Positions 1 through 61,632 of a stretch of 64,000 nt of DNA are shown here, piece by piece; position 1 is the first letter of the stretch, and each line of letters opens with the position of its first letter. The notes beneath the pieces are model-generated. The model saw nothing but the letters and a program-made list of their open reading frames with translations, had not been told where the DNA came from and searched no databases. The stretch comes from an uncultured bacterium (GTDB lineage: Bacteria > Joyebacterota > Joyebacteria > Joyebacterales > Joyebacteraceae). The position numbers and the translations under genes were made by a program. Location: contig CAZAQL010000001.1 in NCBI GenBank assembly GCA_964487295.1, positions 13,091-77,090 on the forward strand. Direction: 5' to 3'.

Positions 1-1202
1 AGAAGTGCCCGGCGAAGACCGACTCGGAGTTCGAGGAGGGGCTGGCGAAGCGCAAGGCCATCTACACGCCGTTCCCGCAGGCCGTGCCGAACAAGCCCGT
101 GCTCGATGCCGAGCACTGCCTCTACATGCAGAGCGGCAAGTGCGGCATCTGCGCGAAGATCTGCCCGGTCGACGCGGTCGACTATGAGCAGAAGGACGAG
201 ATCGTGGAGGAGGAGGTCGGCGCCATCGTCGTCGCGACGGGCTACGACCTCTATCCCGTTGTGAACATCGGCGAGTACGGCGGCGGCAGGCTCAAGGACG
301 TTGTGACGAGCCTCCAGTTCGAGCGGCTGCTCTCCGCGTCCGGTCCGACGAGCGGCGAGGTGCGCAGGCCCTCGGACGGCAAGGTGCCGAAGGAGGTCGT
401 GTTCCTCACCTGCGTCGGCTCGCGCGATCCCGAGAGCCACATGCCCTACTGCTCCAAGATCTGCTGCATGTATCTGACCAAGCACGCGATGCTCTACAAG
501 CACAACGTGCACGACGGTCAGGCCTACCTCTTCTACATGGACGTCCGGACCGGCGGGAAGGGGTACGAGGAGTTCTACCAGCGAGCGACGGAGGAGGACG
601 ACGTTCTCTACATCCGGGGCAAGGTCTCGAAGCTCTTCGAGGAGGACGGCAAGGTCATCGTCTGGGGCGTCGACACGCTGACGGGCCAGAAGGTCGAGGT
701 CGCGGCCGACATGGTCGTGCTCGGCCTCGCGATGGTCCCGAACACAGCCGCCCTCGAGCTCGCGAAGAAGCTCAAGATACAGGTCAACGAGTGGGGCTTC
801 CTTTCGGAGGCTCACCCGAAGCTCAGGCCCGTCGAGAGCCTCGCGCCCGGCTTCTATCTCGCCGGCGCCGCGCAGGGGCCGAAGGACATTCCGGACGCCG
901 TGGCTCAGGCGTCGGGCGCCGCGAGCAAGGTCGCGTCGCTCTTCGCCGAGAAGGAGTACCACCGAGAGCCGATCATCGCGTTCGTCGACGAGGACGATTG
1001 CGCGGGCTGTCGCGTGTGCGTCTCGGTCTGTCCGTACGATGCGGCCCAGTTCGACGAGGAGAAGAAGGTGGCGCACATCCAGGAGGCGATCTGCGAGGGC
1101 TGCGGCGCGTGCATCGCGGCGTGTCCGTCCGGATCCGTGACGCAGAAGAACCTCACCGACGACCAGCTTTTCCACATGGTCACGGCGGCCCTGGAGGACT
1201 GA
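1..1202 (+). CDS. hdrA: heterodisulfide reductase subunit A (HdrA), C-terminal part; 5' end lies upstream of the window
   Basis: Frame 3 is open from the window edge (..CPAKTDSEFEEGLAKRKAIYTPFPQAVPNKP..) to TGA at 1200-1202. Two CxxCxxCxxxCP ferredoxin motifs sit near the C-terminus (CAGCRVCVSVCP, CEGCGACIAACP). The overall layout is typical of HdrA. Confidence 0.85.
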   Translation, partial: KCPAKTDSEFEEGLAKRKAIYTPFPQAVPNKPVLDAEHCLYMQSGKCGICAKICPVDAVDYEQKDEIVEEEVGAIVVATGYDLYPVVNIGEYGGGRLKDVVTSLQFERLLSASGPTSGEVRRPSDGKVPKEVVFLTCVGSRDPESHMPYCSKICCMYLTKHAMLYKHNVHDGQAYLFYMDVRTGGKGYEEFYQRATEEDDVLYIRGKVSKLFEEDGKVIVWGVDTLTGQKVEVAADMVVLGLAMVPNTAALELAKKLKIQVNEWGFLSEAHPKLRPVESLAPGFYLAGAAQGPKDIPDAVAQASGAASKVASLFAEKEYHREPIIAFVDEDDCAGCRVCVSVCPYDAAQFDEEKKVAHIQEAICEGCGACIAACPSGSVTQKNLTDDQLFHMVTAALED

Positions 1203-1203
1203 T

Positions 1204-1776
1204 ATGTTCGAACCGAGAGTCATGTGCTTCTTCTGCAAGTGGTGCACCTATGCCGGCGCCGATCTCGCGGGGACATCACGCAAGCAGTACCCGCCGAACG
1301 GCGTCGCAGTGCGCGTCAACTGCAGCGGGCGCGTGGATCCGCAGCACATTCTGTGGGCGTTCAGGGAGGGGGCGGACGGCGTGCTGCTGGGAGGGTGTCA
1401 TCCTGGTGACTGCCACTACCAGGACGGCAACTACAACACGATGCGGAGACTGTCGCTCCTCAAACCGATGCTCAAGGAGCTCGGGATCAACCCCGACCGG
1501 GTCCGGCTCGAGTGGATCTCGGCGGCCGAGGGCGACAAGCTCGTGCGCGTGATGAATGAGTTCGTCGATCACATCCGCGAGCTCGGCCCGCTCACCGTCG
1601 ATCTGGGCGAGGATCTCGCGGGTGTGGAAGGTCCGCCGGGTGTCGCTGCCGCGACGCCGAAGCGGAAGCCGGTCGCCGGCAAGCCGGCGGCTGCCGCTCG
1701 CGCGGCAGCTAAGCCGAAGCCGAAGGCTTCGGCATCCAAGGGCAAGGGAAAGAGATCCACAGCGAAGACGAAGTAG
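1204..1776 (+). CDS. mvhD: MvhD/FlpD-type hydrogenase iron-sulfur (2Fe-2S) subunit with a K/A/P-rich C-terminal tail
   Basis: The Cys pattern CKWCTYAGADLAG..NCSGRVD..GGCHPGDCHY matches the MvhD family. The ATG lies 2 nt after the hdrA stop, with GGAGG 6 nt upstream. The last ~45 aa are a lysine/alanine/proline-rich low-complexity tail. Confidence 0.85.
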   Translation: MFEPRVMCFFCKWCTYAGADLAGTSRKQYPPNGVAVRVNCSGRVDPQHILWAFREGADGVLLGGCHPGDCHYQDGNYNTMRRLSLLKPMLKELGINPDRVRLEWISAAEGDKLVRVMNEFVDHIRELGPLTVDLGEDLAGVEGPPGVAAATPKRKPVAGKPAAAARAAAKPKPKASASKGKGKRSTAKTK

Positions 1777-1844
1777 CTTGAGGACGGACGGGGAGGGGTG
1801 ACAAGCCCTCACCCCCCGTCGGACGAACAGGAGGAATGCCTGCG

Positions 1845-2528
1845 ATGGCAGAGGACATGGTCACCATCCACGTGATGGGAAAGGCGTACGAGGTCCCCTC
1901 GAACCTCACCATCATGAAGGCGATGGAGTACGCCGGCTACCAGTTCATCAGAGGGTGTGGGTGCCGGGGGGCGTTCTGCGGAGCCTGCGGCACGGTCTAC
2001 CGCACGAAGGACGACTACCGGCTCAAGGTCGGGCTGGCGTGCCAGGAGATGGTGCAGGACGAGATGTACCTCGCGGAGATCCCGTTCTTCCCGGGGAACA
2101 AGGCGACGTACGATGTCGAGAAGCTCAAGCCGACCTCCGAGACGATCCTCAAGCACTACCCGGAGGTCTTCCGCTGTCTCGCCTGCAACGCGTGCACGAA
2201 GGCCTGTCCGCAGGACATCGAGGTGATGGAATACGTGCAGGCGGCGCTTCGCGGCGACATCGCCAAGGCGGCCGACCTGTCGTTCGACTGCCTGCTCTGC
2301 GGGCTCTGCGCGTCGCGCTGTCCGGCGGAGATCGTGCAGTACAACGTGGCCCTTCTGTGCCGCCGGCTCTACTCGAGCAAGGTCGCGCCGCGCGCGGAGC
2401 ATCTCGCAAAGCGCGTGAAGGAAGTGAAGAAGGGCAAGTTCGACAAGGAGATGGCGAAGCTCAAGAAGATGAAGAAGCCCCAGCTCGCGAAGCTGTATGC
2501 GGAGCGCGAGATCGAGCCGGCTGAGTAG
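1845..2528 (+). CDS. succinate dehydrogenase/fumarate reductase iron-sulfur subunit-like protein (2Fe-2S plus two 4Fe-4S motifs)
   Basis: CRGAFCGAC fits the C-x4-C-x2-C 2Fe-2S pattern. CLACNACTKACP and CLLCGLCASRCP are 4Fe-4S motifs. AGGAGG lies about 10 nt upstream of ATG 1845; the ORF is also open from ATG 1836. The C-terminus is K-rich. Confidence 0.75.
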   Translation: MAEDMVTIHVMGKAYEVPSNLTIMKAMEYAGYQFIRGCGCRGAFCGACGTVYRTKDDYRLKVGLACQEMVQDEMYLAEIPFFPGNKATYDVEKLKPTSETILKHYPEVFRCLACNACTKACPQDIEVMEYVQAALRGDIAKAADLSFDCLLCGLCASRCPAEIVQYNVALLCRRLYSSKVAPRAEHLAKRVKEVKKGKFDKEMAKLKKMKKPQLAKLYAEREIEPAE

Positions 2529-2539
2529 GAGGAGGGCGC

Positions 2540-4168
2540 GTGTACACCGGAAAGATGCTTGAATCGATGAAGCGCCTGGAGGCCACCCGCAACGAGCGGT
2601 TGGGTCAGGAGATCCCGCTTCTCTCCCCCGAGGCCAGGCAGGAGCTGCTCGAGGGGTTCCACCCGGATTTCAAGGACGACGTGTTCCGGACCCTCAAGGT
2701 GGGACCGTCGAAGGGCGACCGGGCGCCGAAGGAGCTGGTCGACGCGTTCGAGGCGTACAGCGCGATCGATCCGGCGAAGTTCGATCTGTCGGATGTCGAC
2801 CGTGATGTGGATGTTCTGATCATCGGCGGCGGCGGCGCGGGCGCCGCGGCCGCGCTGGTGGCGGCGGAGCACGGTGCGGACGTGCTGCTCGCCACGAAGC
2901 TCAGGCTCGGCGATTCGAACACCGTGATGGCGCAGGGCGGCATCCAGGGCGCCGACAAGGCGAACGACTCTCCGGCCATCCACTACCTGGACGTGATGGG
3001 CGGCGGGCGCTACTTCAACGACCCTGATCTCGTCGAGGCGCTCGTCACCGACGCGCCTGATGTCCTGGCCTGGCTCGAGAAGCTCGGCGTGATGTTCGAC
3101 AAGGAAGCCGACGGCACGATGATCTCGATCCACGGCGGCGGCACATCGCGCAAGCGCATGCACGCGGCGCGCGACTACACCGGCGCCGAGATCATGAAGA
3201 CTCTGAAGGACGAGGTGCTCAACCGCGAGATCCCCGTCATGGAGTTCGCCGCGGCCTACGAGCTTCTGACCGACGGCAAGAAGGTCACCGGCGCGATCCT
3301 CTACAACATGGAGACCGAGGGGTACCTGGTCGTCCGCGCCAAGACCGTCATCATCGCCACCGGCGGCAGCGGCAGGCTCCACGTCATGGGCTTTCCGACG
3401 AGCAACCACTACGGCGCCACGGCGGACGGCCTCGTGCTCGGTTACCGCGCGGGCGCTCCGCTCACCTTCATGGACACGATCCAGTACCATCCGACGGGCG
3501 CCGCATACCCCGAGCAGATCCTGGGGCTCCTGGTGACCGAGAAGGTCCGCGGCATCGGCGGGCAGATCGTGAACGATGAAGGCAACCGGTTCATCTACGA
3601 GCTCGAGACGCGCGACGTCGAGGCCGCGGCGATCATCCGCGAGTGTCTCGGCCGCAAGAAGGGCGTCACGACGCCGTCCGGTCAGCCCGCGGTCTGGCTC
3701 GACACGCCGATCATCGACGTGATGCACGGCGAGGGCACGATCAGATCGCGCATCCCGGCGATGTACCGGCAGTACGAACGGTTCGGGATCGACATGACGA
3801 AGGTCCCGATCCTCATCTACCCGACGCAGCACTACCAGAACGGCGGACTCACGATCGACGCGACCGGCGAGACGAAGGTGAAGAACCTCTTCGCAGCCGG
3901 CGAGGTCGCGGGTGGCATCCACGGGCGGAATCGCCTGATGGGCAACTCGCTCCTGGACGTCGTCGTCTACGGCCGGCGCGCCGGAGAGGCGGCGGCCGAG
4001 CGGGCCGCGGGGATGAAGAAGGCCGGGAGGATGACGCTTCAGCATCTCGAGAAGTTCCACAAGGATCTCAAGGCGGCGCGCGTCGGCAAGGGGCGGGTGG
4101 CGCCCGTCCTGCTGCCGGAGTACCGCCGCACGGAGACCGTCGATCACCGTATCGGCGCTCTCGACTAG
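2540..4168 (+). CDS. FAD-dependent oxidoreductase of the SdhA/FrdA flavoprotein family (non-covalent-FAD type)
   Basis: GGGGAGAAAA is a dinucleotide-binding fold. HPTG and HYQNGG are catalytic-domain signatures of the SdhA/FrdA/L-aspartate oxidase family. Ser (SNTVMAQGG) occupies the position of the covalent-FAD histidine of SdhA. GTG start with AGGAGGAGGG upstream. There is an unusual ~85-aa N-terminal extension. Confidence 0.8.
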   Translation: MYTGKMLESMKRLEATRNERLGQEIPLLSPEARQELLEGFHPDFKDDVFRTLKVGPSKGDRAPKELVDAFEAYSAIDPAKFDLSDVDRDVDVLIIGGGGAGAAAALVAAEHGADVLLATKLRLGDSNTVMAQGGIQGADKANDSPAIHYLDVMGGGRYFNDPDLVEALVTDAPDVLAWLEKLGVMFDKEADGTMISIHGGGTSRKRMHAARDYTGAEIMKTLKDEVLNREIPVMEFAAAYELLTDGKKVTGAILYNMETEGYLVVRAKTVIIATGGSGRLHVMGFPTSNHYGATADGLVLGYRAGAPLTFMDTIQYHPTGAAYPEQILGLLVTEKVRGIGGQIVNDEGNRFIYELETRDVEAAAIIRECLGRKKGVTTPSGQPAVWLDTPIIDVMHGEGTIRSRIPAMYRQYERFGIDMTKVPILIYPTQHYQNGGLTIDATGETKVKNLFAAGEVAGGIHGRNRLMGNSLLDVVVYGRRAGEAAAERAAGMKKAGRMTLQHLEKFHKDLKAARVGKGRVAPVLLPEYRRTETVDHRIGALD

Positions 4169-4317
4169 CAGAGACGAATCCGGCCGGGTGTGGCGACTGC
4201 GCCGCCCGCCCGAGCCGGGGCTCTGTCTCGGCGCCGGTCCGGCTCCGCCCGCCGTTGAGACGGCAGTGCGGCCTTCGACGAACGCCGGCTCGACGCCGGC
4301 GAGGGGGTGAGGAAGGG

Positions 4318-4800
4318 ATGAGGGCATTGATCCTGGGGCTCGGAGATCCGGGTCTTGCGGGAGAGCGGGTCGGACTCGAGGTGGCGCGGGAGCTCCATTC
4401 CACGCTGGATGATCCCGAGGTCGACATCATCGAGACGAGGGTCTCGGGAATCGACCTGTTCGAGATCGTCGCCGGGTACGACAAGGTCGTCATCGTCGAC
4501 TGCGTCCGAACGGGCGAGGGCGGTTTCGGGGAACTCTGCCGTCTCGGGCTCGACGACCTCGAGCTGGTTCCGAAACGGAAGGCCGATCACGGCGTGGAGT
4601 ACAGAGCCAAGATAGAGATCGACGGCGTCTCCGACCTGGCCATGCCGGGCGAGATCTCCGTCTATGCCATCGAGGTGACCGACGACGTCGCCGATGGCCC
4701 GGATCTGAAACCTGTCGCGCGCGAGGCGGTTCTCAGGCTCGTCGATGAGATCGCACGCGAGGAGTTCGGCGGCAGGATGCGAGAAAGCGGGTGGTACTGA
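4318..4800 (+). CDS. hydrogenase maturation (C-terminal processing) protease, HycI/HyaD family
   Basis: 160 aa. The N-terminus MRALILGLGDPGLAGERVGLEV matches the conserved LvlGiGN..gDdGvG signature of this protease family. GAGG-like RBS upstream. The longer track ORF 3643..4800 is an antisense read-through of the flavoprotein gene. Confidence 0.7.
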   Translation: MRALILGLGDPGLAGERVGLEVARELHSTLDDPEVDIIETRVSGIDLFEIVAGYDKVVIVDCVRTGEGGFGELCRLGLDDLELVPKRKADHGVEYRAKIEIDGVSDLAMPGEISVYAIEVTDDVADGPDLKPVAREAVLRLVDEIAREEFGGRMRESGWY

Positions 4801-4818
4801 GGCAGAACGCAGCTTCAC

Positions 4819-6192
4819 ATGAAGGAGGGCTTTCCCTTGGCAGAGGAGAAGCGGCTCACGAAGGAAGAACTGGTCAAGAAGGCTGAGAAGCCGAGTCACG
4901 ACGCCATGGTGCTGCACCCGTTCTACGGGGGCAAGTACCAGGTCGTCCCGAAGTGCGTCATCCGCAGCCTGGATGACTTCTCCATCTGGTACACCCCGGG
5001 CGTAGCGGCGCCCTGCAAGGACATCCACGCTCACCCCGAGGCCGTCTACGAGCACACGAACAAGAAGAACACCATCGCCGTCGTGACCGACGGCACGCGC
5101 GTGCTGGGGCTCGGAGACATCGGTCCGCACGCCAGCCTCCCGGTCATGGAGGGCAAGGCTCTCCTTTTCAAGTACCTGGGCGGCGTCGACGCCGTGCCCA
5201 TCGCCGTCGACACGAAGGACCCGGACGTCCTGATCGAGACAACGAAGCTCATCAGCCCCGCGTTCGGGGGGATCAACCTCGAGGACATATCGCAGCCGAA
5301 GTGCTTCCGCGTTCTCGAGGAGGTACGCGCCGCGCTCGACATCCCCGTCTGGCACGACGACCAGCAGGGGACGGCGGCCATCACCGTGGCGGGCGCCATC
5401 AACGCCGTCAAGGTCGTCGGCAAGGAGTTCGACAAGGTCAGGATCGCGATGATCGGCGCGGGAGCGTCCAACGTCCGGATCGCGCACCTTCTGATCAGCG
5501 CGGGCGCCGACCCCGGCAAGATCATCATGTGCGACAGCCGCGGCACGCTCCACGAGGGCAGGAAGAACGACTTCCTGCCGGACTACAAGGAGAAGTGGGA
5601 GCTCGCGCAGCTGACGAACGAGGCGAACCTGGACGGTGACCCGGGCGACGCCTGCAAGGGCGCCGACATGCTCATCGCGCTCTCGAAGCCGGGTCCCGAC
5701 ACGGTCAAGAAGGAGTGGATCGAGGCCATGGCGAAGGACGCCATCGTCTTCGTCTGCGCCAATCCCGTTCCGGAGATCTGGCCGTGGGAGGCGAAGGACG
5801 CGGGAGCCCGGATCGTGGCGACGGGCCGCTCCGACTTCCCGAACCAGGTCAACAACTCCCTCGGATTCCCGGCCATCTTCCGGGGCGCGCTCGACGTCAT
5901 GGCGAAGACCATCACGGACGAGATGTGCATCGCGGCCGCCGAGGAGATCGCGCAGTGCGCCGAGGACAAGGGGCTTCGCGAGGACTACATCGTTCCGGCC
6001 ATGACCGAGTGGGAGACCTTCCCGCGGGAGGCCGTGGCCGTCGGAATGAAGGCTATCGAACAGGGCGTCGCGCGTGTTAGCATCTCGCGCGAGGATCTCT
6101 ACAAGATGGCCGAGGCGAAGATCAGGGAGGCGAGAGAGCAGGCCCACGTTCTTATGAGGGAGGGCCTCATACCTCCTGCGCCGGAGCTCTAG
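4819..6192 (+). CDS. NAD(P)-dependent malic enzyme
   Basis: Strong malic-enzyme signatures: GPHASLPVMEGKALLFKYLGGVDAVPI, NLEDISQPKCF, and an NAD-binding GAGASNV segment. 457 aa. Confidence 0.85.
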   Translation: MKEGFPLAEEKRLTKEELVKKAEKPSHDAMVLHPFYGGKYQVVPKCVIRSLDDFSIWYTPGVAAPCKDIHAHPEAVYEHTNKKNTIAVVTDGTRVLGLGDIGPHASLPVMEGKALLFKYLGGVDAVPIAVDTKDPDVLIETTKLISPAFGGINLEDISQPKCFRVLEEVRAALDIPVWHDDQQGTAAITVAGAINAVKVVGKEFDKVRIAMIGAGASNVRIAHLLISAGADPGKIIMCDSRGTLHEGRKNDFLPDYKEKWELAQLTNEANLDGDPGDACKGADMLIALSKPGPDTVKKEWIEAMAKDAIVFVCANPVPEIWPWEAKDAGARIVATGRSDFPNQVNNSLGFPAIFRGALDVMAKTITDEMCIAAAEEIAQCAEDKGLREDYIVPAMTEWETFPREAVAVGMKAIEQGVARVSISREDLYKMAEAKIREAREQAHVLMREGLIPPAPEL

Positions 6193-6215
6193 GAAGCACG
6201 CACACTCCAGAGATC

Positions 6216-6243
6216 GCACGGGCGGCCGCCCGGCCGCCCGTGC
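6216..6243 (+). terminator. GC-rich hairpin downstream of malic enzyme (11-bp stem, no U tract)
   Basis: GCACGGGCGGC / GCCGCCCGTGC perfect inverted repeat with a 6-nt loop, 24 nt after the stop. Confidence 0.4.
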
Positions 6244-6266
6244 GGTCTCGGAATCCCGGGTTCCGC

Positions 6267-6866
6267 ATGACTGAAGAGCTGCATCCTACCGACACCGAGC
6301 TCGTGACCGCCGCGAAGAACGGCGACAATGAGGCCTTCGGCCAACTCGTCGAGCGGCACGAGGCGAACGTCTACGGTCTCTGTCTCAAGATGCTCAAGAA
6401 CCCCGAGGACGCCGAGGACTGCCTCCAGGAGGTCTTCGTCAAGGCGTACAAGGCGCTTCCCGGTTTTCGCGAGGAGGCGCGGTTCTCCACCTGGATCTAC
6501 CGGATCGCGACCAATGCCGCCCTCATGCGCATCCGCAAGAAGAAGCTCGATACGGTGTCCCTCGACCAGCCGGTCGAGCTCGGAGAGACGAAGGTCCCGC
6601 GCGAGGTCGCGGACTGGACCACCGATCCCTCGACCAACGTCATGAACGATGAGCTCTCCGCCGTGCTCACTCAGCACATCAACGACCTTCCGCCCAACAA
6701 CAGGATCGTGTTCGTGCTCCGGGACGTGCACGGTCTCTCGACCGACGAGACGGCCGGCGTGCTCGGGCTGACCGCCCCGGCGGTCAAGTCGAGGCTGCAC
6801 CGGGCCAGGCTGTTTTTGCGCGAGCGCCTGTCGGAGTACTACGCTCGTGGAGGGCCCCCCGCGTGA
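6267..6866 (+). CDS. RNA polymerase ECF sigma factor (sigma-70 family, regions 2 and 4)
   Basis: Region 2 (FGQLVERHEANVYGLCLKML..EDCLQEVFVKAY..FSTWIYRIATN) and region 4 (RIVFVLRDVHGLSTDETAGVLGLTAPAVKSRLHRAR). ORF open from GTG 6240; ATG 6267 chosen as start. Confidence 0.8.
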   Translation: MTEELHPTDTELVTAAKNGDNEAFGQLVERHEANVYGLCLKMLKNPEDAEDCLQEVFVKAYKALPGFREEARFSTWIYRIATNAALMRIRKKKLDTVSLDQPVELGETKVPREVADWTTDPSTNVMNDELSAVLTQHINDLPPNNRIVFVLRDVHGLSTDETAGVLGLTAPAVKSRLHRARLFLRERLSEYYARGGPPA

Positions 6867-6943
6867 CACGTGAATCGTTCTGCGCGGTTCTGAATCGAAA
6901 GTGTGTTGCACAATCACTCAATCGGCAGCAAGGAGGACGCAGA

Positions 6944-8884
<1,941 letters not shown>

Positions 8885-8997
8885 GTCAACGAACCAGACG
8901 CGGAGCTTCCACCGCCAGCGATCTAGGGCGCGGTATGCGGGTCGCACCGGACACCCATGAAGCGGTGAAGCCATGCGTCGCAAGCGGGTGAGACACC

Positions 8998-9249
8998 ATG
9001 GACGAGAAGCACGATTGCGAAGGCTGTCTGGAGTTCCTTGAGGTCCTCTCGGAGTACTACGACGGGGAGCTCGACGAGGCGATCGCCACCAGGCTCGAGC
9101 TGCACATGCGAGAGTGCAAGCGGTGCGAGGCGGTCGTGCGGACGTTCAGGCAGACCATCGTGCACTACACGACGACCCGCTGTCGGAAGGTGCCTTCGAA
9201 CGTGCACCAGGGGCTCATGAACGCCCTCAGGAAGTGCATGGAGGAGTAG
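8998..9249 (+). CDS. ZAS-type (zf-HC2) anti-sigma factor, small cytoplasmic
   Basis: 83 aa with the HMRECKRC (H-x3-C-x2-C) zinc motif plus an upstream CEGC. Lies downstream of the ECF sigma gene, with the S9 peptidase between them. Confidence 0.6.
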   Translation: MDEKHDCEGCLEFLEVLSEYYDGELDEAIATRLELHMRECKRCEAVVRTFRQTIVHYTTTRCRKVPSNVHQGLMNALRKCMEE

Positions 9250-10121: not shown

Positions 10122-10194
10122 CGCCGCGCTCCGGGGCTAAGATGGTTTCAAGCAGCAGTGTCCGCGATGCGCCCGTCTCACGCAGGAGGTGATC

Positions 10195-11655
10195 ATGCCG
10201 CCAGAGATGAAGCGAGGAGGCAGGCTCGTCGTGATCGGCGGCGACGCCGCGGGGATGAGCGCCGCGAGCCGGGCCAGGAGGCTTCGCCCGGACGTGGAGA
10301 TCGTCGTGCTTGAGCGAGGAGAGATCGTCTCCTACGGCGCCTGTTCGCTGCCGTACTACGTCGCCGGACTGGTGCCGTCCCGCGACGACCTCATCGTTCA
10401 TGATCCCGACTTCTTCCGTCGCGAACGGCATATCGACGTCCGCACCGGGGCCGATGTCGTGGCCGTGCATCCGCGGGAACGGACCGTCCTGTGCAGTACC
10501 GCTCTCGGCGAGGAGTCGTTGACCTACGACGCTCTCGTCATCGCAACAGGCGCGAAGCCCGTGAGGCCGCGGCTCCCGGGCGTCGACCTGCCGGGCGTCT
10601 TCACGCTCAGGTCCGTTCCCGACGGCGACGCCATTCGAGAGCGGCTGCGCTCTCTCGGGGCCCCCGAGCCCTCAGTCACGGGGAGCATCGACGGCACGCT
10701 CGAGGATCCTCCGGCAACGTCGCCTCCTCACGGGACGATCCGCGCGACGGTCGTCGGCGGCGGGTACATCGGACTGGAGATGGCCGAGGCTCTCGTCGCT
10801 CGGGGCGCGCGCGTGACGGTCATCGAACTCCTTCCGCGCGTTCTGTCGACATACGATCCCGACATGAGCGACCTTGTTCTCCGGGAGCTTCTGGACCGAC
10901 AGGTGATCGTACGGACCGGAACGGGCGTCGAGGCGTTCGAGGCCGGCGAGGACGGGAGCGTCGGCTTCGTGCTCGCCGGCGGTCAGAGGCTCGCCACGGA
11001 CATCGCTGTACTCGCCGTCGGCGTGAGGCCGCGCGTCGAGCTGGCCCGCGACGCCGGGATCGAGCTCGGCCGAACGGGCGCGATCGCCGTCGACCCGCGA
11101 CAGGTCACGAGCGAGCCCGCGGTGCTCGCCGCGGGCGACTGCGCCGAGTCGCCTCACATCGTGACGGGCAGATCGGCGTGGATCCCGCTGGGCACGACGG
11201 CGAACAAGCAGGGGCGGCTCGCGGGTGAGAACGCTGTCGGTGGCGATGCGCGTTTCGGAGGCGTCGCCGGGACCAACGTGACGAAGATCTTCGGCCTCGA
11301 GGCGGCGCAGACAGGGCTCTCGACCGAGGCCGCCGAGAACGAGGGCATGGAGCCCGACTCCGTCCGCATCACGGGGGCGACGCGCTCGCATGCGTATCCC
11401 GGCGGCGGCAGGATCACGGTCAAGCTCATCTTCGAGCGCGGCTCCGGCCGGCTGCTCGGAGCGCAGCTCGTCGGGGCGGAGGGCGTCGCCAAGCGCGTGG
11501 ACATCCTCGCGGCGGCGCTCGCCGCGGGCATGCGCGTCCACGACGTCGCGGCGCTCGATCTGAGCTACGCGCCCCCGTTCGCTCCGGTGTGGGATCCCGT
11601 CCTGATCGCGGCGAACCAGGCAGTGAAGAAACACGCGTCGGGACGCGACGAGTAG
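10195..11655 (+). CDS. CoA-disulfide reductase / NADH oxidase family flavoprotein (single redox-active Cys)
   Basis: VIGGDAAG FAD fold. Active-site SYGACSLPYY. Second dinucleotide fold VVGGGYIGLEMAEAL. AGGAGG lies 5 nt before ATG 10195. There is a ~30-aa insert (APEPSVTGSIDGTLEDPPATSPPHGTI). Confidence 0.8.
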   Translation: MPPEMKRGGRLVVIGGDAAGMSAASRARRLRPDVEIVVLERGEIVSYGACSLPYYVAGLVPSRDDLIVHDPDFFRRERHIDVRTGADVVAVHPRERTVLCSTALGEESLTYDALVIATGAKPVRPRLPGVDLPGVFTLRSVPDGDAIRERLRSLGAPEPSVTGSIDGTLEDPPATSPPHGTIRATVVGGGYIGLEMAEALVARGARVTVIELLPRVLSTYDPDMSDLVLRELLDRQVIVRTGTGVEAFEAGEDGSVGFVLAGGQRLATDIAVLAVGVRPRVELARDAGIELGRTGAIAVDPRQVTSEPAVLAAGDCAESPHIVTGRSAWIPLGTTANKQGRLAGENAVGGDARFGGVAGTNVTKIFGLEAAQTGLSTEAAENEGMEPDSVRITGATRSHAYPGGGRITVKLIFERGSGRLLGAQLVGAEGVAKRVDILAAALAAGMRVHDVAALDLSYAPPFAPVWDPVLIAANQAVKKHASGRDE

Positions 11656-33535: not shown

Positions 33536-33564
33536 TTGCTTTGCTCCGTAATCTGTGTTATCAT
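33536..33564 (+). promoter_or_regulatory. candidate sigma-70 promoter TTGCTT-N17-TATCAT in AT-rich island
   Basis: A local AT-rich stretch (cattgctttgctccgtaatctgtgttatcatttgaagttagg) in otherwise GC-rich DNA. AAGGAG 9 nt before ATG 33628. Confidence 0.4.
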
Positions 33565-33627
33565 TTGAAGTTAGGAGCAATCAAAGACGAGACGCCCGAT
33601 TTCCTCCTCGACAAGGAGATGGAGAGC

Positions 33628-36255
33628 ATGGTGCGTGTCCTGACAATCAGCCTTGCCGCGGCGCTGCTGGTCGCGGCCGCGGTCCCTGCGGCGGCCGGTC
33701 CCGAGGGGCCGTACGTGCAGGCCCGGGTCCAGTTCCGCGACGCCGCCGAGGCGGAGCGGTTCATGAGCCTGGACGAGCTCGACGTGATGAAGTACAAGCC
33801 CGGCGTCGGCGTTCAGCTCGTCACGAGCCACGAGCAGATCGAGGAGTTCCGGTCGCTCGGCTACGACGTCGTCATCGAGATCGATGACATGTCGAGCTTC
33901 TACGCCGCCCGGAACACGGCTCGCGGTTACGGTGACTTCTACACGTTCGACGAGACCGTGACCTTCATCAACTCGCTTCACGCGTCCTATCCGAACATCG
34001 TGAGCGAGCCCATCAGCATCGCGACGACGGAGCAGGGGAGGACGCTGTGGGCGCTCAAGATCTCCGACAACCCGGAGGTCGACGAGCTTGAGCCCGAGAT
34101 CCTTCTCGACGCGGTTCATCACGCGCGCGAGCCGATCACGATCAACGCCGTCCTCAACTACATGGACTGGCTGACGTCAAACTACGGGACGGACCCCGAG
34201 GCGACGTTCCTCGTAGACAACCGGGAGATCTGGTTCCTCCCGTGCGTCAACCCGGACGGCTATGTCTACAACGAGCAGACCGACCCCAACGGCGGCGGCA
34301 TGTGGCGCAAGAACCGCCGGGACAATGCCGGCAGCTCGTGTTACGGCGTCGACCCGAACCGCAACTACAGCTACCAGTGGGGCACGTCCGGCATCTCGTT
34401 CGACCCGTGCAGCGACATCTACTGCGGGACCCAGGCGTTCTCCGAGCCGGAGATCGCCGGCTACCGTGACTTCGTCGAGTCGCACGACTTCGTGACGAAC
34501 ATCACGTTCCACTCGGTCGCCGGAGCGATCCTGGTTCCGTGGAGCTACACGACCACATCCCCACCCGAGCCGGATAACACGATCTTCCGCGACATCGGCG
34601 ACATGATGGCGATGTCGAACGGCTACGAGGTCGGGACCGCGTACGAGACGATCAACTACACCTGCTCCGGCACCACCTGCGACTGGATGTACGGCGTGCA
34701 CGGGATCTGGTCGCTCTGCATCGAGGTGAGCGGCAGCGGCTTCTGGCCGCAGCAGAGCGAGATCGCCGGGCTCACGGCCGAGAACCTCTGGCCGCAGCAG
34801 TACATCAGCCGCATCGCGGGGGCCTACCTCGCGCTCAGCTCGACGCACTTCACCGGCGGAAACGGCGACCAGGAGCCGGACGCCGGCGAGACGCTCGACC
34901 TGACGATCACGGTCGAGAATCAGGGCGTCGTCGCGGACGCGTCGAACGTCCAGGTCACCCTGGTGACGGACGATCCGTACGTCGCGCTGCACGATGCGCA
35001 CACGACGCTCGGTTCGATCGCGGCGGGGTCCTCCACGCAGAACACGTTCGACCCGTTCTCCCTCTCGGTCGACGCGGGAACCCCGGACGGTCACGGTCTC
35101 GCCGTGACGCTCATCATCGAGGGCGACGGGCTGTACATGGAGGAGGAGCTGTCCTGGATGGTCGGCGAGCCGACGGTCGTGTTCTTCGACGACATGGAGA
35201 GCGGCACCGGCAACTGGGTCGAGAATGACGGCTACTGGGGTCTGACGACCTCGTCGTACCACTCGGCATCGAACAGCTACACGGACAGTCCGAACGGCAG
35301 CTACAGCAACTACCGGAACACGTGGATCGAGCTGGCGTCCCCGATCGACTTCTCCGCCGCGTCGGCTGCGGACCTCTCCTTCTGGCACCGCGTCTCCACG
35401 GAGGAGGACTACGACTTCTGCTACGTCGAGGTCTCGGACGACAACGGAGCGACGTGGAACCAGGTTGGCCCGAAGTACCACGGCAACAGCTACGGCTGGG
35501 ATCAGGTGGAGCTGTCGCTGAACGATTACGTCGGAACGGCGGGCTTCAAGCTCCGCTTCCGCTTCACGTCGGATACCTACGTGACCGCCGACGGATGGTA
35601 CGTGGACGACGTGACGATCAGCGGGCCGCCGACCGGCAACACGAAGCCGACCGCGCCGGTGCTGAACGACCCGCCCGATGGCGGCACGGTGTCGGTCTCC
35701 ACGCCGGAGCTCACGGTCACAAACGCCGTGGACAGCGATCCCGGCGACGTGCTCACGTACGGTTTCCGCGTCTACGACGACGAGTTCTGCACGAGCCTCG
35801 CCGCGTCGATCTCCGGCGTGGCCGAGGGCAGCGGAACGACGTCGTGGACCGTCGACTCCGGTCTCGCTGACGGCACGTACTACTGGCGGGCCTACGCGGA
35901 CGACGGGACCGAGCGAAGCCAGCTCATGGAGACCGCGTCCTTCACGGTGGAGAGCACGGGCGTCGACGAGGCCGTCGGCCGCCTCGCGCTCCATGCCGCG
36001 AGCCCGAACCCGTTTGCCGGTTCTGCGAGACTCTCGTTCTCGCTTCCCGAGCGAGCGGACGTCGAGCTCTCCGTCTACAGCGTTGACGGCAGACTGGTGC
36101 GAACGCTCGTATCCGGCGAGGCCGGTCCCGGCGTCATCGAGCTCACATGGGACGGTCGTGACAACGGCGGCCGCCGCGTGGGCAACGGCCTGTACTTCAT
36201 GCGCCTGACCGCGGCCGACGAGACGAGGCACGGCAAGCTCGTCATGCTCCGCTAG
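33628..36255 (+). CDS. secreted M14 zinc carboxypeptidase with MAM/jelly-roll-like and Fn3-like domains and Por/T9SS C-terminal sorting domain
   Basis: M14 zinc site HHAREP. Signal peptide. C-terminus ..SPNPFAGSARLSFSLPERADVELSVYSVDGRLVRTLVSGEAGPGVIELTWDGRDNGGRRVGNGLYFMRLTAADETRHGKLVMLR matches the T9SS CTD pattern. Confidence 0.85.
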   Translation: MVRVLTISLAAALLVAAAVPAAAGPEGPYVQARVQFRDAAEAERFMSLDELDVMKYKPGVGVQLVTSHEQIEEFRSLGYDVVIEIDDMSSFYAARNTARGYGDFYTFDETVTFINSLHASYPNIVSEPISIATTEQGRTLWALKISDNPEVDELEPEILLDAVHHAREPITINAVLNYMDWLTSNYGTDPEATFLVDNREIWFLPCVNPDGYVYNEQTDPNGGGMWRKNRRDNAGSSCYGVDPNRNYSYQWGTSGISFDPCSDIYCGTQAFSEPEIAGYRDFVESHDFVTNITFHSVAGAILVPWSYTTTSPPEPDNTIFRDIGDMMAMSNGYEVGTAYETINYTCSGTTCDWMYGVHGIWSLCIEVSGSGFWPQQSEIAGLTAENLWPQQYISRIAGAYLALSSTHFTGGNGDQEPDAGETLDLTITVENQGVVADASNVQVTLVTDDPYVALHDAHTTLGSIAAGSSTQNTFDPFSLSVDAGTPDGHGLAVTLIIEGDGLYMEEELSWMVGEPTVVFFDDMESGTGNWVENDGYWGLTTSSYHSASNSYTDSPNGSYSNYRNTWIELASPIDFSAASAADLSFWHRVSTEEDYDFCYVEVSDDNGATWNQVGPKYHGNSYGWDQVELSLNDYVGTAGFKLRFRFTSDTYVTADGWYVDDVTISGPPTGNTKPTAPVLNDPPDGGTVSVSTPELTVTNAVDSDPGDVLTYGFRVYDDEFCTSLAASISGVAEGSGTTSWTVDSGLADGTYYWRAYADDGTERSQLMETASFTVESTGVDEAVGRLALHAASPNPFAGSARLSFSLPERADVELSVYSVDGRLVRTLVSGEAGPGVIELTWDGRDNGGRRVGNGLYFMRLTAADETRHGKLVMLR

Positions 36256-43041: not shown

Positions 43042-43089
43042 GGATAATTGGAAGCGAATGAGTGGGTCATGGCATCCGAACGGAGGAAC

Positions 43090-61508: not shown

Positions 61509-61632
61509 CGTATTGTTGTCGGACTACCAATCATCAACGAACAGAGTTGCTGCCAGCGGAAGGGTCGGCGGCCAGGTCGCGTTGTCGCGCCTGTCCGTGT
61601 CGCTCGTCCGCGCCATCACGGAGGAGCCGACG

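What the first reader, a model, noticed from the sequence alone, without database searches (positions are those of the whole stretch)
1..6192. HdrA-MvhD module genetically fused to an SdhB-like / non-covalent-FAD SdhA-like pair plus a hydrogenase maturation protease: candidate flavin-based electron-bifurcating dicarboxylate oxidoreductase
Gene order is hdrA (3' part) - mvhD - Fe-S subunit with SdhB-type 2Fe-2S and 4Fe-4S motifs - flavoprotein carrying HPTG/HYxNGG SdhA/FrdA signatures. The flavoprotein has Ser where the 8-alpha-histidyl-FAD His normally sits, as in soluble thiol:fumarate reductases and L-aspartate oxidase. It also carries an unusual ~85-aa N-terminal extension. A hydrogenase C-terminal processing protease and a malic enzyme follow; malic enzyme connects malate, fumarate and pyruvate. 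The genes abut or overlap (stop-ATG spacing 1-60 nt), so they look like one transcription unit. HdrA/MvhD are the electron-bifurcating core of the Mvh-Hdr complexes. Coupling them to an Sdh/Frd-like catalytic pair rather than HdrBC would be an unusual wiring, possibly an H2- or ferredoxin-driven fumarate reductase-like or other 2-enoate reductase.
Basis: partly seen in the sequence, partly recalled or inferred. Interest (0 to 1): 0.7.

Follow-up and report, generated by a model that had tools for sequence, protein, structure and literature searches.

The report
Hdr-linked soluble fumarate reductase operon
The window starts inside an operon that encodes a cytoplasmic fumarate reductase with non-covalently bound flavin next to heterodisulfide-reductase (HdrABC-MvhD) electron-bifurcation proteins; this combination is widespread and has been predicted from genomes before, but no biochemical test of it turned up in the literature I could search.

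Summary
Three corrections. The covalent-FAD His is replaced by Asn127, not Ser. One intergenic gap is 149 nt. A 90%-identical syntenic relative has hdrC-hdrB upstream, so HdrBC is present, not replaced.

The FeS-flavoprotein pair is a very conserved family (>60% identity) in at least several hundred species-level genomes of many bacterial and archaeal phyla. All fumarate-binding residues are invariant. The family has its own N-terminal domain and lacks the Sdh C-terminal domain.

Across 82 loci the pair sits beside Hdr genes in 52. It also sits beside fumarase, malic enzyme, succinyl-CoA synthetase or 2-oxoacid:ferredoxin oxidoreductase genes. One locus reads fumAB-hdrCBA-mvhDGA-FeS-flavoprotein.

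Best reading: a soluble fumarate reductase wired to HdrABC-MvhD, probably bifurcating electrons to fumarate and ferredoxin.

The idea is already published for Flx-Hdr-linked versions (P. thermosuccinogenes, Riftia symbiont), without enzyme data in the papers I could search. This Eisenbacteria-type variant has no donor module and carries a degenerate HycI homologue.

Verdict: new variant of a known kind, moderate interest.

The parts
1..1202 (+). hdrA, 3' part (399 codons, cut by the window start). Contains the C-terminal part of the FAD domain and the C-terminal 2x[4Fe-4S] ferredoxin domain.
   Evidence: NCBIfam HdrA2 446 bits, model positions 253-642. Pfam Fer4 families. 845 bits to the full-length 652-aa HdrA of the syntenic relative L001.
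1204..1776 (+). mvhD/flxD-type [2Fe-2S] subunit (190 aa) with a Lys/Ala/Pro-rich C-terminal tail.
   Evidence: Pfam FlpD 1.8e-52. NCBIfam: 167 bits on the MvhD-like end of the HdrA2 model and 127 bits on VhuD. Its start lies 1 nt after the hdrA stop.
1836..2528 (+). Fe-S subunit of the fumarate reductase pair (230 aa). N-terminal plant-type [2Fe-2S] motif plus two CxxCxxCxxxCP motifs.
   Evidence: All 12 Cys (43, 48, 51, 69, 114, 117, 120, 124, 152, 155, 158, 162) are invariant in 30 diverse homologues. Lies directly upstream of the flavoprotein gene in 74 of 82 loci. Weak profile match to Wolinella FrdB, E=1e-6.
2540..4168 (+). Flavoprotein (catalytic) subunit, 542 aa. Family-specific N-terminal domain (1-88), FAD/capping domains, short C-terminal tail, no covalent-FAD His.
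   Evidence: FAD_binding_2 8.5e-80. NCBIfam: TfrA 350 bits, nadB 299, SdhA/FrdA 299, all below cut-offs. N127, H317, T333, E334, R337, R358, H431 and R465 are invariant, except T333, which is conserved in at least 90% of the 58 sequences. Foldseek top hits are E. coli FrdA and M. smegmatis SdhA. The N-terminal domain is found only at the N-termini of this family.
4318..4800 (+). HycI/HybD-like protein (160 aa): a degenerate homologue of hydrogenase maturation endopeptidases.
   Evidence: TIGR00072 62 bits and Pfam HycI 3e-7. Only 32 homologues were found; several lie on contigs whose lengths match those of flavoprotein hits, and in the fetched loci the gene always follows the flavoprotein gene. 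Asp61 is invariant, but the Glu16 and His93 equivalents vary.
4819..6192 (+). Malic enzyme (457 aa), 18 nt downstream of the hycI-like gene.
   Evidence: Pfam malic and Malic_M. A malic enzyme gene also lies next to the Fe-S/flavoprotein pair in Bacillota, Syntrophomonadaceae and Desulfovibrio loci; 10 of 82 loci in total.

Best explanation
The Fe-S protein and the flavoprotein form a cytoplasmic, anchor-less fumarate reductase with non-covalently bound FAD. The intended electron path is [2Fe-2S], then 2x[4Fe-4S], then FAD, then fumarate.

In this organism the pair is co-expressed with HdrC, HdrB (both just upstream of the window, inferred from a 90%-identical relative), HdrA and MvhD, and it works with them as one electron-transfer system.

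HdrA's FAD splits an electron pair. One electron goes down the high-potential branch (HdrC / HdrB-SdhE-like CCG protein, then the Fe-S subunit, then the flavoprotein) to fumarate (E0' about +30 mV). The other electron reduces ferredoxin.

The two-electron donor differs between lineages:
- Mvh [NiFe]-hydrogenase in L013.
- FrhB/Flx-type NAD(P)H or F420H2 modules in many Bacillota, Chloroflexota and Thermoplasmata.
- No donor module in the Eisenbacteria-type operon of this window. Here HdrA+MvhD most resemble a split HdrA2, so the donor is probably a diffusible hydride carrier or reduced ferredoxin acting directly on HdrA, or a hydrogenase encoded elsewhere.

Malic enzyme (and fumarase in other lineages) feeds the pathway pyruvate/malate, fumarate, succinate.

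Shown: gene content, conserved residues, conserved synteny. Inferred: physical complex, bifurcation, identity of the donor.
For: Catalytic subunit:
- All fumarate/succinate-binding and catalytic residues of FrdA/SdhA are invariant or (T333) at least 90% conserved in 58 family members. The covalent-FAD His is an invariant Asn.
- The best structural matches are FrdA/SdhA.

Metabolic context in 82 loci from many phyla:
- Class I fumarase in 20, class II fumarase in 3, malic enzyme in 10.
- OFOR subunits in 16, succinyl-CoA synthetase beta/alpha in 6/4, CoA-transferase in 5.

Coupling to Hdr:
- Hdr genes lie next to the pair in 52 of 82 loci: HdrA 46, HdrB 39, HdrC 34, MvhD 29, FrhB-like 23.
- At least five different gene orders occur. 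In Armatimonadota, including cultured Ca. Fervidibacter sacchari, hdrCBA lies between the Fe-S and flavoprotein genes.
- L013 has abutting fumA-fumB-hdrC-hdrB-hdrA-mvhD-mvhG-mvhA-FeS-flavoprotein genes.
- The syntenic relative L001 shows hdrC-hdrB-hdrA-mvhD-FeS-flavoprotein-hycI-malic. Its HdrB has both CCG motifs.
- In an NJ tree that HdrB groups with the HdrB copies that sit next to the Fe-S gene elsewhere. It scores as well on the SdhE model as on the HdrB model.

Operon structure: no terminator-like site or unusually stable hairpin between the genes.

Precedents:
- HdrA2(HdrA-MvhD fusion)B2C2 bifurcates without a separate donor module (PMC5296606).
- Flx-Hdr plus fumarate reductase operons were proposed to couple fumarate and ferredoxin reduction (PMC7282089; PMC6315080; PMC11636981).
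Against: - No biochemical data exist for any member, as far as the searchable literature shows.
- 30 of 82 loci (WOR-3, Syntrophomonadaceae and others) show no Hdr gene within the fetched flanks, so the pair can evidently work with other partners.
- In this window and its close relatives no mid-potential donor module is encoded. The window holds no hydrogenase, fumarase or OFOR genes.
- In MvhAGD-HdrABC, MvhD is the entry point for the mid-potential donor. A fumarate reductase docked on MvhD would be in the thermodynamically wrong position, so the wiring proposed here (through HdrC/HdrB) is an assumption.
- The flavoprotein has Gln (A-Q-G-G), as SdhA and NadB do, where E. coli FrdA has Glu49. 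This is not a specifically reductase-like feature (own knowledge of FrdA E49/SdhA Q50).
- Similarity of the Fe-S protein to SdhB/FrdB is weak, and its structure model was too poor to test the fold.
- hdrCB upstream is inferred from a relative, not seen in the window.
Confidence: 0.5

Rival explanations
1. Two-enzyme thiol cycle. HdrC, HdrB, the Fe-S protein and the flavoprotein form a split thiol:fumarate reductase (like TfrAB) that oxidises a low-molecular-weight or protein dithiol. A separate HdrA(-MvhD)-containing reductase re-reduces the disulfide. Coupling runs through a diffusible thiol/disulfide, not through direct electron transfer in one complex.
For: - Methanothermobacter TfrB is an Fe-S domain fused to CCG domains, which corresponds to the Fe-S protein plus HdrB here (NCBIfam TfrB hits on both).
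- hdrC-hdrB lies directly next to the Fe-S/flavoprotein pair in many loci without an intervening hdrA.
- Armatimonadota carry two hdrCB sets: one next to the Fe-S gene and one next to hdrA.
- The two sets fall in different HdrB clades.
- A CoADR-like disulfide reductase lies 4 kb downstream.
Against: - Eisenbacteria-type operons have only one hdrCB set for both roles.
- Archaeal and Chloroflexota loci have hdrA-mvhD-frhB-FeS-flavoprotein with no hdrBC adjacent to those genes.
- No thiol cofactor is known for these phyla.
Confidence: 0.2
2. A non-bifurcating, biosynthetic fumarate reductase. Hdr-type Fe-S and flavin proteins only carry electrons from reduced ferredoxin or NAD(P)H to fumarate in a reductive or branched TCA pathway. 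No energy is conserved.
For: - The pair lies with fumarase, succinyl-CoA synthetase and OFOR genes, which fits an anabolic reductive branch.
- HdrA2B2C2 also shows plain ferredoxin-dependent disulfide reduction (PMC5296606).
- The H. thermophilus five-subunit soluble NADH-fumarate reductase is described as a simple NADH enzyme (PMC13147460).
Against: - HdrA is so far known as a bifurcating flavoprotein, and it is kept in 46 of 82 loci.
- A small ferredoxin gene sits in the cluster in several loci.
- Reducing fumarate with ferredoxin or NADH without coupling would waste 350-500 mV.
Confidence: 0.15
3. The hdrCBA-mvhD genes and the Fe-S/flavoprotein genes encode unrelated enzymes that are simply neighbours in this lineage.
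For: The pair occurs without Hdr genes in 30 of 82 loci. A 59-nt spacer with a modest hairpin separates mvhD from the Fe-S gene.
Against: - The association recurs in many phyla and in several gene orders, including interleaved ones.
- There is a dedicated HdrB clade.
- The hairpin is no more stable than in shuffled sequence and has no U-tract.
Confidence: 0.08
4. A succinate-oxidising or quinone-linked enzyme: a type-E-like succinate:quinone oxidoreductase that uses the CCG protein as a peripheral anchor, or a confurcating succinate dehydrogenase.
For: L001 'HdrB' scores 186 bits on the SdhE (MFR anchor) model against 177 on HdrB. The flavoprotein has the SdhA-like AQGG motif.
Against: - There is no covalent-FAD His. 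Covalent attachment is needed for efficient succinate oxidation in FrdA/SdhA (own knowledge).
- Both NCBIfam scores are far below their cut-offs.
- HdrA, HdrC and MvhD are soluble bifurcation-type parts.
- Succinate (+30 mV) is too weak a reductant to act as donor to the Hdr acceptors.
Confidence: 0.04
5. The flavoprotein is an L-aspartate oxidase (NadB) used for NAD synthesis.
For: NCBIfam nadB 299 bits. FAD is non-covalent, as in NadB.
Against: - The score is below the nadB cut-off of 453, and TfrA scores higher.
- The position that I recall as the NadB-specific Glu121 appears to be an invariant His198. This rests on a by-eye alignment from memory and was not tested with a tool.
- No nadA or nadC genes are nearby.
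- The protein is always paired with an Fe-S subunit and is often next to fumarase.
- Frd/Sdh structures are the top fold matches.
Confidence: 0.02

Closest known systems
Flx-Hdr-linked 'novel fumarate reductase' of Pseudoclostridium thermosuccinogenes ('succinate operon': fumarase + 7-gene FlxABCD-HdrABC + 2-gene fumarate reductase). Source: Koendjbiharie & van Kranenburg 2019 preprint, as cited and used in PMC7282089.
   Same: - A two-gene soluble fumarate reductase directly beside hdrABC and an MvhD/FlxD gene.
- Proposed to couple fumarate reduction to ferredoxin reduction.
- Loci with exactly this 7+2 gene pattern plus a class II fumarase are in my set (L073, L069, L062).
   Different: - The window's operon type has no FlxABC (NAD(P)H dehydrogenase) genes and adds a HycI-like gene.
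- Sequence orthology to the P. thermosuccinogenes proteins could not be checked here; it rests on matching gene arrangement only.
tfrAB interspersed with flxABCD-hdrABC and korABCD in the rTCA gene cluster of Ca. Endoriftia persephone and Thioflavicoccus mobilis (PMC6315080; PMC11636981; PMC13147460).
   Same: An AB-type anchor-less fumarate reductase clustered with Hdr/Flx and 2-oxoacid:ferredoxin oxidoreductase. The same bifurcation hypothesis: NADH to fumarate plus ferredoxin.
   Different: That setting is autotrophic rTCA in Gammaproteobacteria. Here there is no Flx, no OFOR and no ATP-citrate lyase in the window. Family identity of those TfrA proteins with this N-extension family was not tested.
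Thiol:fumarate reductase TfrAB of Methanothermobacter (NCBIfam NF004900 / NF004898).
   Same: - Soluble enzyme, and TfrA is the best-scoring NCBIfam model.
- The Fe-S subunit combines [2Fe-2S] and [4Fe-4S] motifs.
- Functional tie to CCG-type (HdrB-like) domains.
- From my own knowledge, TfrA also lacks the covalent-FAD His.
   Different: - TfrA score is 350 bits against a cut-off of 718, and the match covers only model positions 7-423 of 546. This family lacks the C-terminal part and has its own 88-aa N-terminal domain.
- TfrB is one polypeptide (Fe-S + CCG); here the Fe-S protein and HdrB/HdrC are separate.
- Bacteria lack CoM and CoB.
MvhAGD-HdrABC and HdrA2B2C2 electron-bifurcating heterodisulfide reductases of methanogens (PDB 5ODC family; PMC5296606).
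   Same: HdrA, MvhD and (in relatives) HdrB with two CCG motifs and HdrC. HdrA+MvhD score best on the HdrA2 model. L013 even keeps MvhG and MvhA.
   Different: All scores are below the curated equivalog cut-offs. There is an extra Frd-type pair. No hydrogenase is encoded in this locus. The disulfide substrate is unknown or absent.
Five-subunit soluble NADH-dependent fumarate reductase FrdABCDE of Hydrogenobacter thermophilus (Miura et al. 2008, as described in PMC13147460; subunit similarities recalled from memory, paper not held).
   Same: A cytoplasmic FrdAB with additional soluble redox subunits in place of a membrane anchor. It acts in the reductive TCA direction.
   Different: It was characterised as a plain NADH enzyme. 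Its accessory subunits are different (GltD-like and others). No HdrA or MvhD is reported for it.
QmoABC-AprAB of sulfate reducers (analogy only, own knowledge).
   Same: HdrA-like flavoproteins and an MvhD-like domain deliver electrons to a soluble Fe-S subunit plus a non-covalent-FAD member of the fumarate-reductase flavoprotein superfamily.
   Different: AprA acts on APS/sulfite and has different active-site residues. QmoC is a membrane protein.

Membership tests
Fumarate reductase / succinate dehydrogenase flavoprotein superfamily (PF00890) | FAD_binding_2 domain with an N-terminal GxGxxG motif | tested here: met
   Pfam 8.5e-80, residues 91-471. Foldseek top hits FrdA/SdhA, E about 1e-30.
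Fumarate reductase / succinate dehydrogenase flavoprotein superfamily (PF00890) | Dicarboxylate-binding and catalytic residues (E. coli FrdA H232, T244, E245, R248, R287, H355, R390) | tested here: met
   H317, T333, E334, R337, R358, H431 and R465 align in phmmer alignments to 1kf6_A and 7d6v_A. All are invariant in 58 sequences except T333, which is conserved in at least 90%.
Membrane-bound complex II type SdhA/FrdA | His for 8-alpha-N3-histidyl FAD | tested here: not met
   The aligned residue is Asn127, invariant in the family.
Membrane-bound complex II type SdhA/FrdA | C-terminal Succ_DH_flav_C domain and membrane-anchor genes | tested here: not met
   No PF02910 hit at E<=0.01. No anchor-like gene in the window operon or in L001.
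Thiol:fumarate reductase TfrA (NCBIfam NF004900) | Score at or above the curated cut-off over the full-length model | tested here: not met
   350 bits against 718; model positions 7-423 of 546 only.
Thiol:fumarate reductase TfrB (NF004898) | Fe-S domain fused to CCG domains in one protein | tested here: not met
   The Fe-S protein matches only about 30 residues of TfrB (28 bits). The CCG domains are on a separate HdrB in L001.
L-aspartate oxidase NadB (TIGR00551) | Score at or above the curated cut-off | tested here: not met
   299.5 bits against 452.75.
SdhB/FrdB iron-sulfur subunit | N-terminal [2Fe-2S] Cys motif plus two C-terminal cluster motifs | tested here: met
   C43/48/51/69, C114/117/120/124 and C152/155/158/162 are invariant. 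The second motif has all four Cys, which predicts a [4Fe-4S] and not a [3Fe-4S] cluster.
SdhB/FrdB iron-sulfur subunit | Overall sequence or fold similarity to SdhB | tested here: inconclusive
   dhsB 27 bits against a cut-off of 88. Profile hit to Wolinella FrdB E=1e-6 over 50 residues only. AF2 model pLDDT 64, and Foldseek gave no significant match.
HdrABC-MvhD heterodisulfide reductase module | HdrA flavoprotein with ferredoxin domains | tested here: inconclusive
   The window has only the 3' part (446 bits on HdrA2). Full-length L001 HdrA scores 823 bits against a cut-off of 1100. A clear homologue, but not an equivalog.
HdrABC-MvhD heterodisulfide reductase module | MvhD [2Fe-2S] subunit | tested here: met
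   Pfam FlpD 176.9 bits against a cut-off of 22.3.
HdrABC-MvhD heterodisulfide reductase module | HdrB with two CCG motifs, and HdrC | tested here: met
   Seen only in the 90%-identical syntenic relative L001, because the window starts inside hdrA. Two Cx(n)CCx(n)CxxC motifs are present. HdrB model 177 bits (cut-off 345) and SdhE model 186 bits (cut-off 500).
Flx-Hdr-coupled fumarate reductase operons (P. thermosuccinogenes / Endoriftia type) | Two-gene anchor-less fumarate reductase adjacent to hdrABC and an mvhD/flxD gene | tested here: met
Flx-Hdr-coupled fumarate reductase operons (P. thermosuccinogenes / Endoriftia type) | FlxABC NAD(P)H-oxidising module | tested here: not met
   No PyrK-like, Fer4_22 or FrhB-like gene in the window or in the Eisenbacteria-type loci. 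These are present in 14-23 other loci.
Flx-Hdr-coupled fumarate reductase operons (P. thermosuccinogenes / Endoriftia type) | Orthology of the flavoprotein to the published examples | not testable with these tools
Hydrogenase maturation endopeptidase (HycI/HybD/HupD) | Match to the family model | tested here: met
   TIGR00072 62.1 bits against 47.45; Pfam HycI 30.7 against 23.
Hydrogenase maturation endopeptidase (HycI/HybD/HupD) | Conserved metal ligands (HybD Glu16, Asp62, His93; own knowledge of the 1CFZ structure) | tested here: not met
   The window protein has E16, D61 and a His at about position 89. Across 19 subfamily members only Asp61 is invariant, and the other two positions vary.
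Hydrogenase maturation endopeptidase (HycI/HybD/HupD) | A [NiFe]-hydrogenase large subunit as substrate in the same genome | not testable with these tools
   None in the 64-kb window. The rest of the genome could not be read.
Flavin-based electron-bifurcating enzymes | Coupled reduction of a high-potential and a low-potential acceptor by one donor | not testable with these tools
   Needs enzyme assays.

The most novel reading that the evidence does not exclude
In the Eisenbacteria-type operon the Fe-S/flavoprotein pair has taken the place that MvhG/MvhA occupy in L013-type operons (hdrCBA-mvhD-[mvhGA]-FeS-flavoprotein). What remains is a self-contained six-protein enzyme without any classical donor module. 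It would use a dithiol at HdrB (or a hydride carrier directly at an HdrA2-like HdrA) as the mid-potential donor and bifurcate to fumarate and ferredoxin. The degenerate HycI homologue, which co-occurs strictly with mvhD in these loci, would be kept as a non-proteolytic assembly or structural subunit: a relic of a lost hydrogenase put to a new use.
Probability: 0.12. Interest if true: 0.8.

Novelty: new variant of a known kind. Interest (0 to 1): 0.5.

Why it matters
Fumarate/succinate (+30 mV) is one of the most attractive high-potential acceptors for flavin-based electron bifurcation. I found no report of an enzymatically demonstrated bifurcating fumarate reductase in the library searched.

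If these Hdr-linked enzymes work as proposed, anaerobes without quinones could gain reduced ferredoxin from fumarate reduction. That ferredoxin could drive H2 production, CO2 fixation or 2-oxoacid synthesis. This would change energy budgets for succinate fermentation, reductive and branched TCA pathways, and many uncultured phyla.

This work adds four things:
- The Fe-S/flavoprotein pair is one sharply defined, very conserved family, with an Asn in place of the FAD-His, its own N-terminal domain and no C-terminal domain.
- The family occurs in at least several hundred species-level genomes.
- It combines with interchangeable donor modules: Mvh hydrogenase, Flx/FrhB-type modules, or none.
- It has its own HdrB/SdhE-like clade.

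The family is also present in cultured organisms (Ca. Fervidibacter sacchari and, by gene arrangement, P. thermosuccinogenes), so the hypothesis can be tested directly. For the window itself the result is more modest: another member of this family, in a donor-less arrangement.

Tried and rejected
- Exact-sequence look-ups of the window's MvhD and flavoprotein found no contig. The upstream region therefore had to be inferred from a 90%-identical relative.
With database homologues it gave a poor model (pLDDT 64), and Foldseek found nothing significant. The SdhB-fold test is inconclusive.
- A single-sequence PDB search with the Fe-S protein gave only generic 2x[4Fe-4S] ferredoxin hits.
- [NiFe]-hydrogenase motifs, fumarase, OFOR and Flx-type proteins were searched for in the window. 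None was found.
- A terminator or structured RNA between the genes was looked for. No + strand terminator-like site appeared, hairpins were no better than in shuffled sequence (z -1.2 and -1.5), and there were no Rfam or tRNA hits.
- L-aspartate oxidase was rejected (see rivals).
- An active hydrogenase maturation protease is considered unlikely, because the ligand positions are not conserved in the subfamily.
- The Miura et al. 2008 paper could not be read.
- Searches for 'electron-bifurcating fumarate reductase' and for follow-ups of the Koendjbiharie preprint found no biochemical study.
- A literature search on Eisenbacteria hydrogenases was uninformative.

Full report
**1. What is in the sequence**

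The first 6.2 kb of the window carry six co-directional genes on the + strand.

| Gene | Coordinates | Key evidence |
|---|---|---|
| hdrA, 3' part (399 codons) | ..1202 | NCBIfam HdrA2 446 bits |
| mvhD | 1204-1776 | Pfam FlpD 1.8e-52 |
| Fe-S protein, 230 aa | 1836-2528 | Cys motifs, see section 3 |
| Flavoprotein, 542 aa | 2540-4168 | FAD_binding_2 8.5e-80 |
| HycI-like protein, 160 aa | 4318-4800 | TIGR00072 62 bits, cut-off 47 |
| Malic enzyme | 4819-6192 | Pfam malic, Malic_M |

The gaps between genes are 1, 59, 11, 149 and 18 nt. No terminator-like site lies on the + strand in 1-7000. The two longer spacers fold no better than shuffled sequence and have no U-tract.

- The residue at the covalent-FAD His position is Asn127 (S-N-T against S-H-T), not Ser.
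- One gap is 149 nt.
- The flavoprotein also lacks the Succ_DH_flav_C domain.

**2. What lies upstream**

The window's own proteins are not in the contig index. A relative with a 90%-identical flavoprotein and the same downstream synteny (ECF sigma, S9 peptidase, disulfide oxidoreductase, PtsI-like) shows the full cluster (L001):
- A divergently transcribed MFS transporter gene.
- Then hdrC (146 aa), hdrB (303 aa), hdrA (652 aa), mvhD, FeS, flavoprotein, hycI-like, malic enzyme.

No mvhA/mvhG or flx genes precede hdrA. HdrB has both CCG motifs. This is an inference from a relative, not something seen in the window.

**3. The flavoprotein and Fe-S protein form one sharply defined family**

Distribution and conservation of the flavoprotein:
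- Homologues are 65-90% identical across Eisenbacteria, Thermoplasmata/Methanomassiliicoccales and others.
The scan used patterns that include the Asn signature. The best 80 are all at least 61% identical and come from many phyla: Eisenbacteria, WOR-3, NC10, Anaerolineae, Armatimonadota (including cultured Ca. Fervidibacter sacchari), Bacillota, Ammonifex, Dethiobacter, Desulfovibrio, Thermoplasmata and Geothermarchaeales.

Active site. In a 58-sequence alignment, N127 and the equivalents of the E. coli FrdA residues are conserved:

| E. coli FrdA | This protein |
|---|---|
| His44 (covalent FAD) | N127 |
| H232 | H317 |
| T244 / E245 / R248 | T333 / E334 / R337 |
| Catalytic Arg | R358 |
| H355 | H431 |
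| R390 | R465 |

All are invariant except T333, which is conserved in at least 90% of the sequences.

Classification and fold:
- NCBIfam ranks TfrA (350 bits) above nadB and SdhA/FrdA (299 each). All are below their cut-offs.
- An AlphaFold model (pLDDT 78.7) matches FrdA/SdhA structures best.
- The 88-residue N-terminal extension is confidently helical.
- In a search of 1.84 billion representatives the extension occurs only at protein N-termini; the few full-length hits (537-552 aa) have the family's size. It is a family signature.

The Fe-S partner:
- All twelve Cys of one [2Fe-2S] and two [4Fe-4S] motifs are invariant.
- It lies immediately upstream of the flavoprotein gene in 74 of 82 loci. 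The other eight cases are contig ends or ORF-calling artefacts.
- Its similarity to SdhB/FrdB is weak, and its fold could not be tested.
- Public annotations for it are inconsistent: NuoI, HdrC, ferredoxin, Sdh-like.

**4. Context across 82 loci**

I clustered all ORFs around the pair without prior labels and named the clusters with Pfam.

| Neighbouring gene | Loci (of 82) |
|---|---|
| Any Hdr gene | 52 |
| HdrA | 46 |
| HdrB | 39 |
| HdrC | 34 |
| MvhD | 29 |
| FrhB-like | 23 |
| PyrK/FlxA-like or Fer4_22 | 14 |
| Class I fumarase | 20 |
| Class II fumarase | 3 |
| OFOR subunits | 16 |
| Malic enzyme | 10 |
| Succinyl-CoA synthetase beta / alpha | 6 / 4 |
| Family III CoA-transferase | 5 |

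Typical gene strings:
- OFOR-gltD-OFOR-fumA-fumB-malic-FeS-flavoprotein (Syntrophomonadaceae).
- fumA-fumB-FeS-flavoprotein (WOR-3).
- hdrA-mvhD-frhB-FeS-flavoprotein-fd-OFOR-sucCD (Bacillota).
- hdrB-hdrC-hdrA-mvhD-frhB-Fer4_22-flxA-FeS-flavoprotein-fumC.
- hdrC-hdrB-FeS-flavoprotein-hdrA-mvhD-frhB (NC10).
- hdrC-hdrB-x-FeS-hdrC-hdrB-hdrA-flavoprotein (Armatimonadota), where a second Hdr set lies between the two fumarate reductase genes.

This context fixes the substrate as fumarate/succinate. It also shows a repeated, rearranged and therefore selected link to Hdr modules.

**5. A hydrogenase-linked version exists**

Locus L013 has abutting or overlapping genes in this order: fumA-fumB-hdrC-hdrB-hdrA-mvhD-mvhG-mvhA-FeS-flavoprotein.
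- mvhG scores 223 bits on the VhuG model.
- mvhA scores 381 bits on the VhuA model and has a C-terminal DPCIACATH motif.

It exists, but in another lineage.

**6. The HycI-like gene**

- Only 32 homologues were found. They are 47-100% identical, and several lie on contigs whose lengths match those of flavoprotein hits.
- In the loci, the gene appears exactly where mvhD is followed directly by the Fe-S/flavoprotein pair. It is absent from Eisenbacteria loci that lack mvhD.
- Asp61 is invariant. The positions equivalent to HybD Glu16 and His93 vary.
- I read it as a probably non-proteolytic relic or accessory of a former hydrogenase module. This is inference.

**7. How it most likely works**

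- Non-covalent FAD makes a fumarate reductase rather than a succinate dehydrogenase (established for FrdA His44 variants; own knowledge).
- In an NJ tree without support values, the HdrB of this operon type groups with the HdrB copies that sit next to the Fe-S gene in other phyla, not with the second, HdrA-adjacent copies.
- That HdrB scores as well on the SdhE model (the CCG subunit of type-E Sdh/Frd) as on the HdrB model.
- I therefore place HdrC/HdrB, the Fe-S protein and the flavoprotein together as the high-potential branch, equivalent to a split TfrAB. HdrA is the bifurcating flavoprotein that also reduces ferredoxin.
- Donor modules are interchangeable: Mvh hydrogenase, Flx/FrhB-type modules, or none.
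- For the donor-less Eisenbacteria type, HdrA and MvhD best match a split HdrA2. HdrA2B2C2 is known to oxidise F420H2 or ferredoxin without a separate module (PMC5296606).

Energetically, any donor between H2 (-414 mV) and NADH (-320 mV) could drive ferredoxin reduction when paired with fumarate (+30 mV).

Weak points:
- There is no biochemistry.
- 30 of 82 loci have no Hdr genes in the fetched flanks.
- The canonical role of MvhD is as the donor entry point.
- The donor in this lineage is unknown.

**8. Comparison with what is known**

The hypothesis is not new.
- P. thermosuccinogenes has a 'succinate operon' of fumarase + Flx-Hdr + fumarate reductase. It was proposed to couple succinate formation to ferredoxin reduction (PMC7282089, citing a 2019 preprint).
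- Riftia-symbiont and Thioflavicoccus rTCA clusters intersperse tfrAB with flxABCD-hdrABC and korABCD (PMC6315080). Co-expression data exist for most genes of that cluster, though tfrAB itself was noted as the exception (PMC11636981), and a 2026 survey restates the idea (PMC13147460).
- STRING-type links between HdrA and 'succinate dehydrogenase' in Zixibacteria, Firmicutes and Syntrophaceae were also noted.
- I found no enzymatic demonstration.

The window's protein is not a member of TfrA, NadB or complex II SdhA by curated thresholds or by domain architecture. It belongs to a distinct clade of anchor-less fumarate reductases that carry the N-terminal extension.

**9. Verdict**

It is wrong on 'instead of HdrBC' and on rarity.
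- Novelty: a new variant (no donor module, degenerate HycI homologue) of a kind already predicted from genomes.
- Interest is moderate. The biochemistry is an open, testable question, and cultured carriers exist.

The rest of the window holds housekeeping and secreted-protease genes and nothing that bears on the system, apart from a CoADR-like disulfide oxidoreductase 4 kb downstream.

Noticed in passing
L013:2983-11603 (JBHIEA010000033.1): A complete fumA-fumB-hdrC-hdrB-hdrA-mvhD-mvhG-mvhA-FeS-flavoprotein string with abutting genes. It is the only locus of 82 that has [NiFe]-hydrogenase genes between mvhD and the fumarate reductase pair.
   Followed up: yes
L057:3987-11640 (Ca. Fervidibacter sacchari PD1, NZ_CP130454.1); also L046, L050, L054: Two hdrCB sets. 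The second hdrC-hdrB-hdrA set lies between the Fe-S and flavoprotein genes. OFOR genes lie upstream. This is a cultured organism in which the system could be tested.
   Followed up: partly
window 10189-11655 (+): A pyridine nucleotide-disulfide oxidoreductase with a dimerisation domain (CoADR/NADH-oxidase-like), conserved a few kb downstream of the cluster in related Eisenbacteria loci. It might supply or recycle a thiol partner for HdrB.
   Followed up: no
window 1600-1776 (+): MvhD ends in a Lys/Ala/Pro-rich, low-complexity tail of about 55 residues. The archaeal MvhD of L004 has no comparable tail, and the tail of L001 is shorter.
   Followed up: no
window 6240-9249 (+): ECF sigma factor (6240-6866), S9 prolyl-oligopeptidase-type peptidase (6863-8884) and a small zf-HC2 anti-sigma-like ORF (8998-9249). 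They follow the cluster in the same order in several Eisenbacteria loci.
   Followed up: partly
window 33541-36255, 43048-44868, 58810-61323, 61480-63543 (+): Four large proteins (an M14 carboxypeptidase, a beta-helix/NosD-like protein and others) all end in a FlgD_ig-type domain. This may be a shared C-terminal sorting or anchoring domain.
   Followed up: no
L001:5844-6755 (hdrB of the syntenic relative): The 'HdrB' scores slightly higher on the NCBIfam model for SdhE (the CCG subunit of 8-methylmenaquinol:fumarate reductase) than on the HdrB model. Both scores are below their cut-offs.
   Followed up: partly
public database entries for homologues of window 1836-2528: The Fe-S subunit family is annotated inconsistently: formate hydrogenlyase subunit 6/NuoI, HdrC, ferredoxin, Sdh/Frd-like Fe-S protein, or 4Fe-4S dicluster protein.
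   Followed up: no
window 4169-4317: The 149-nt GC-rich spacer before the hycI-like gene is specific to this lineage (145 nt in L001). In other Eisenbacteria loci the spacer is roughly 10-50 nt by my ORF coordinates. No Rfam match and no significant structure.
   Followed up: partly
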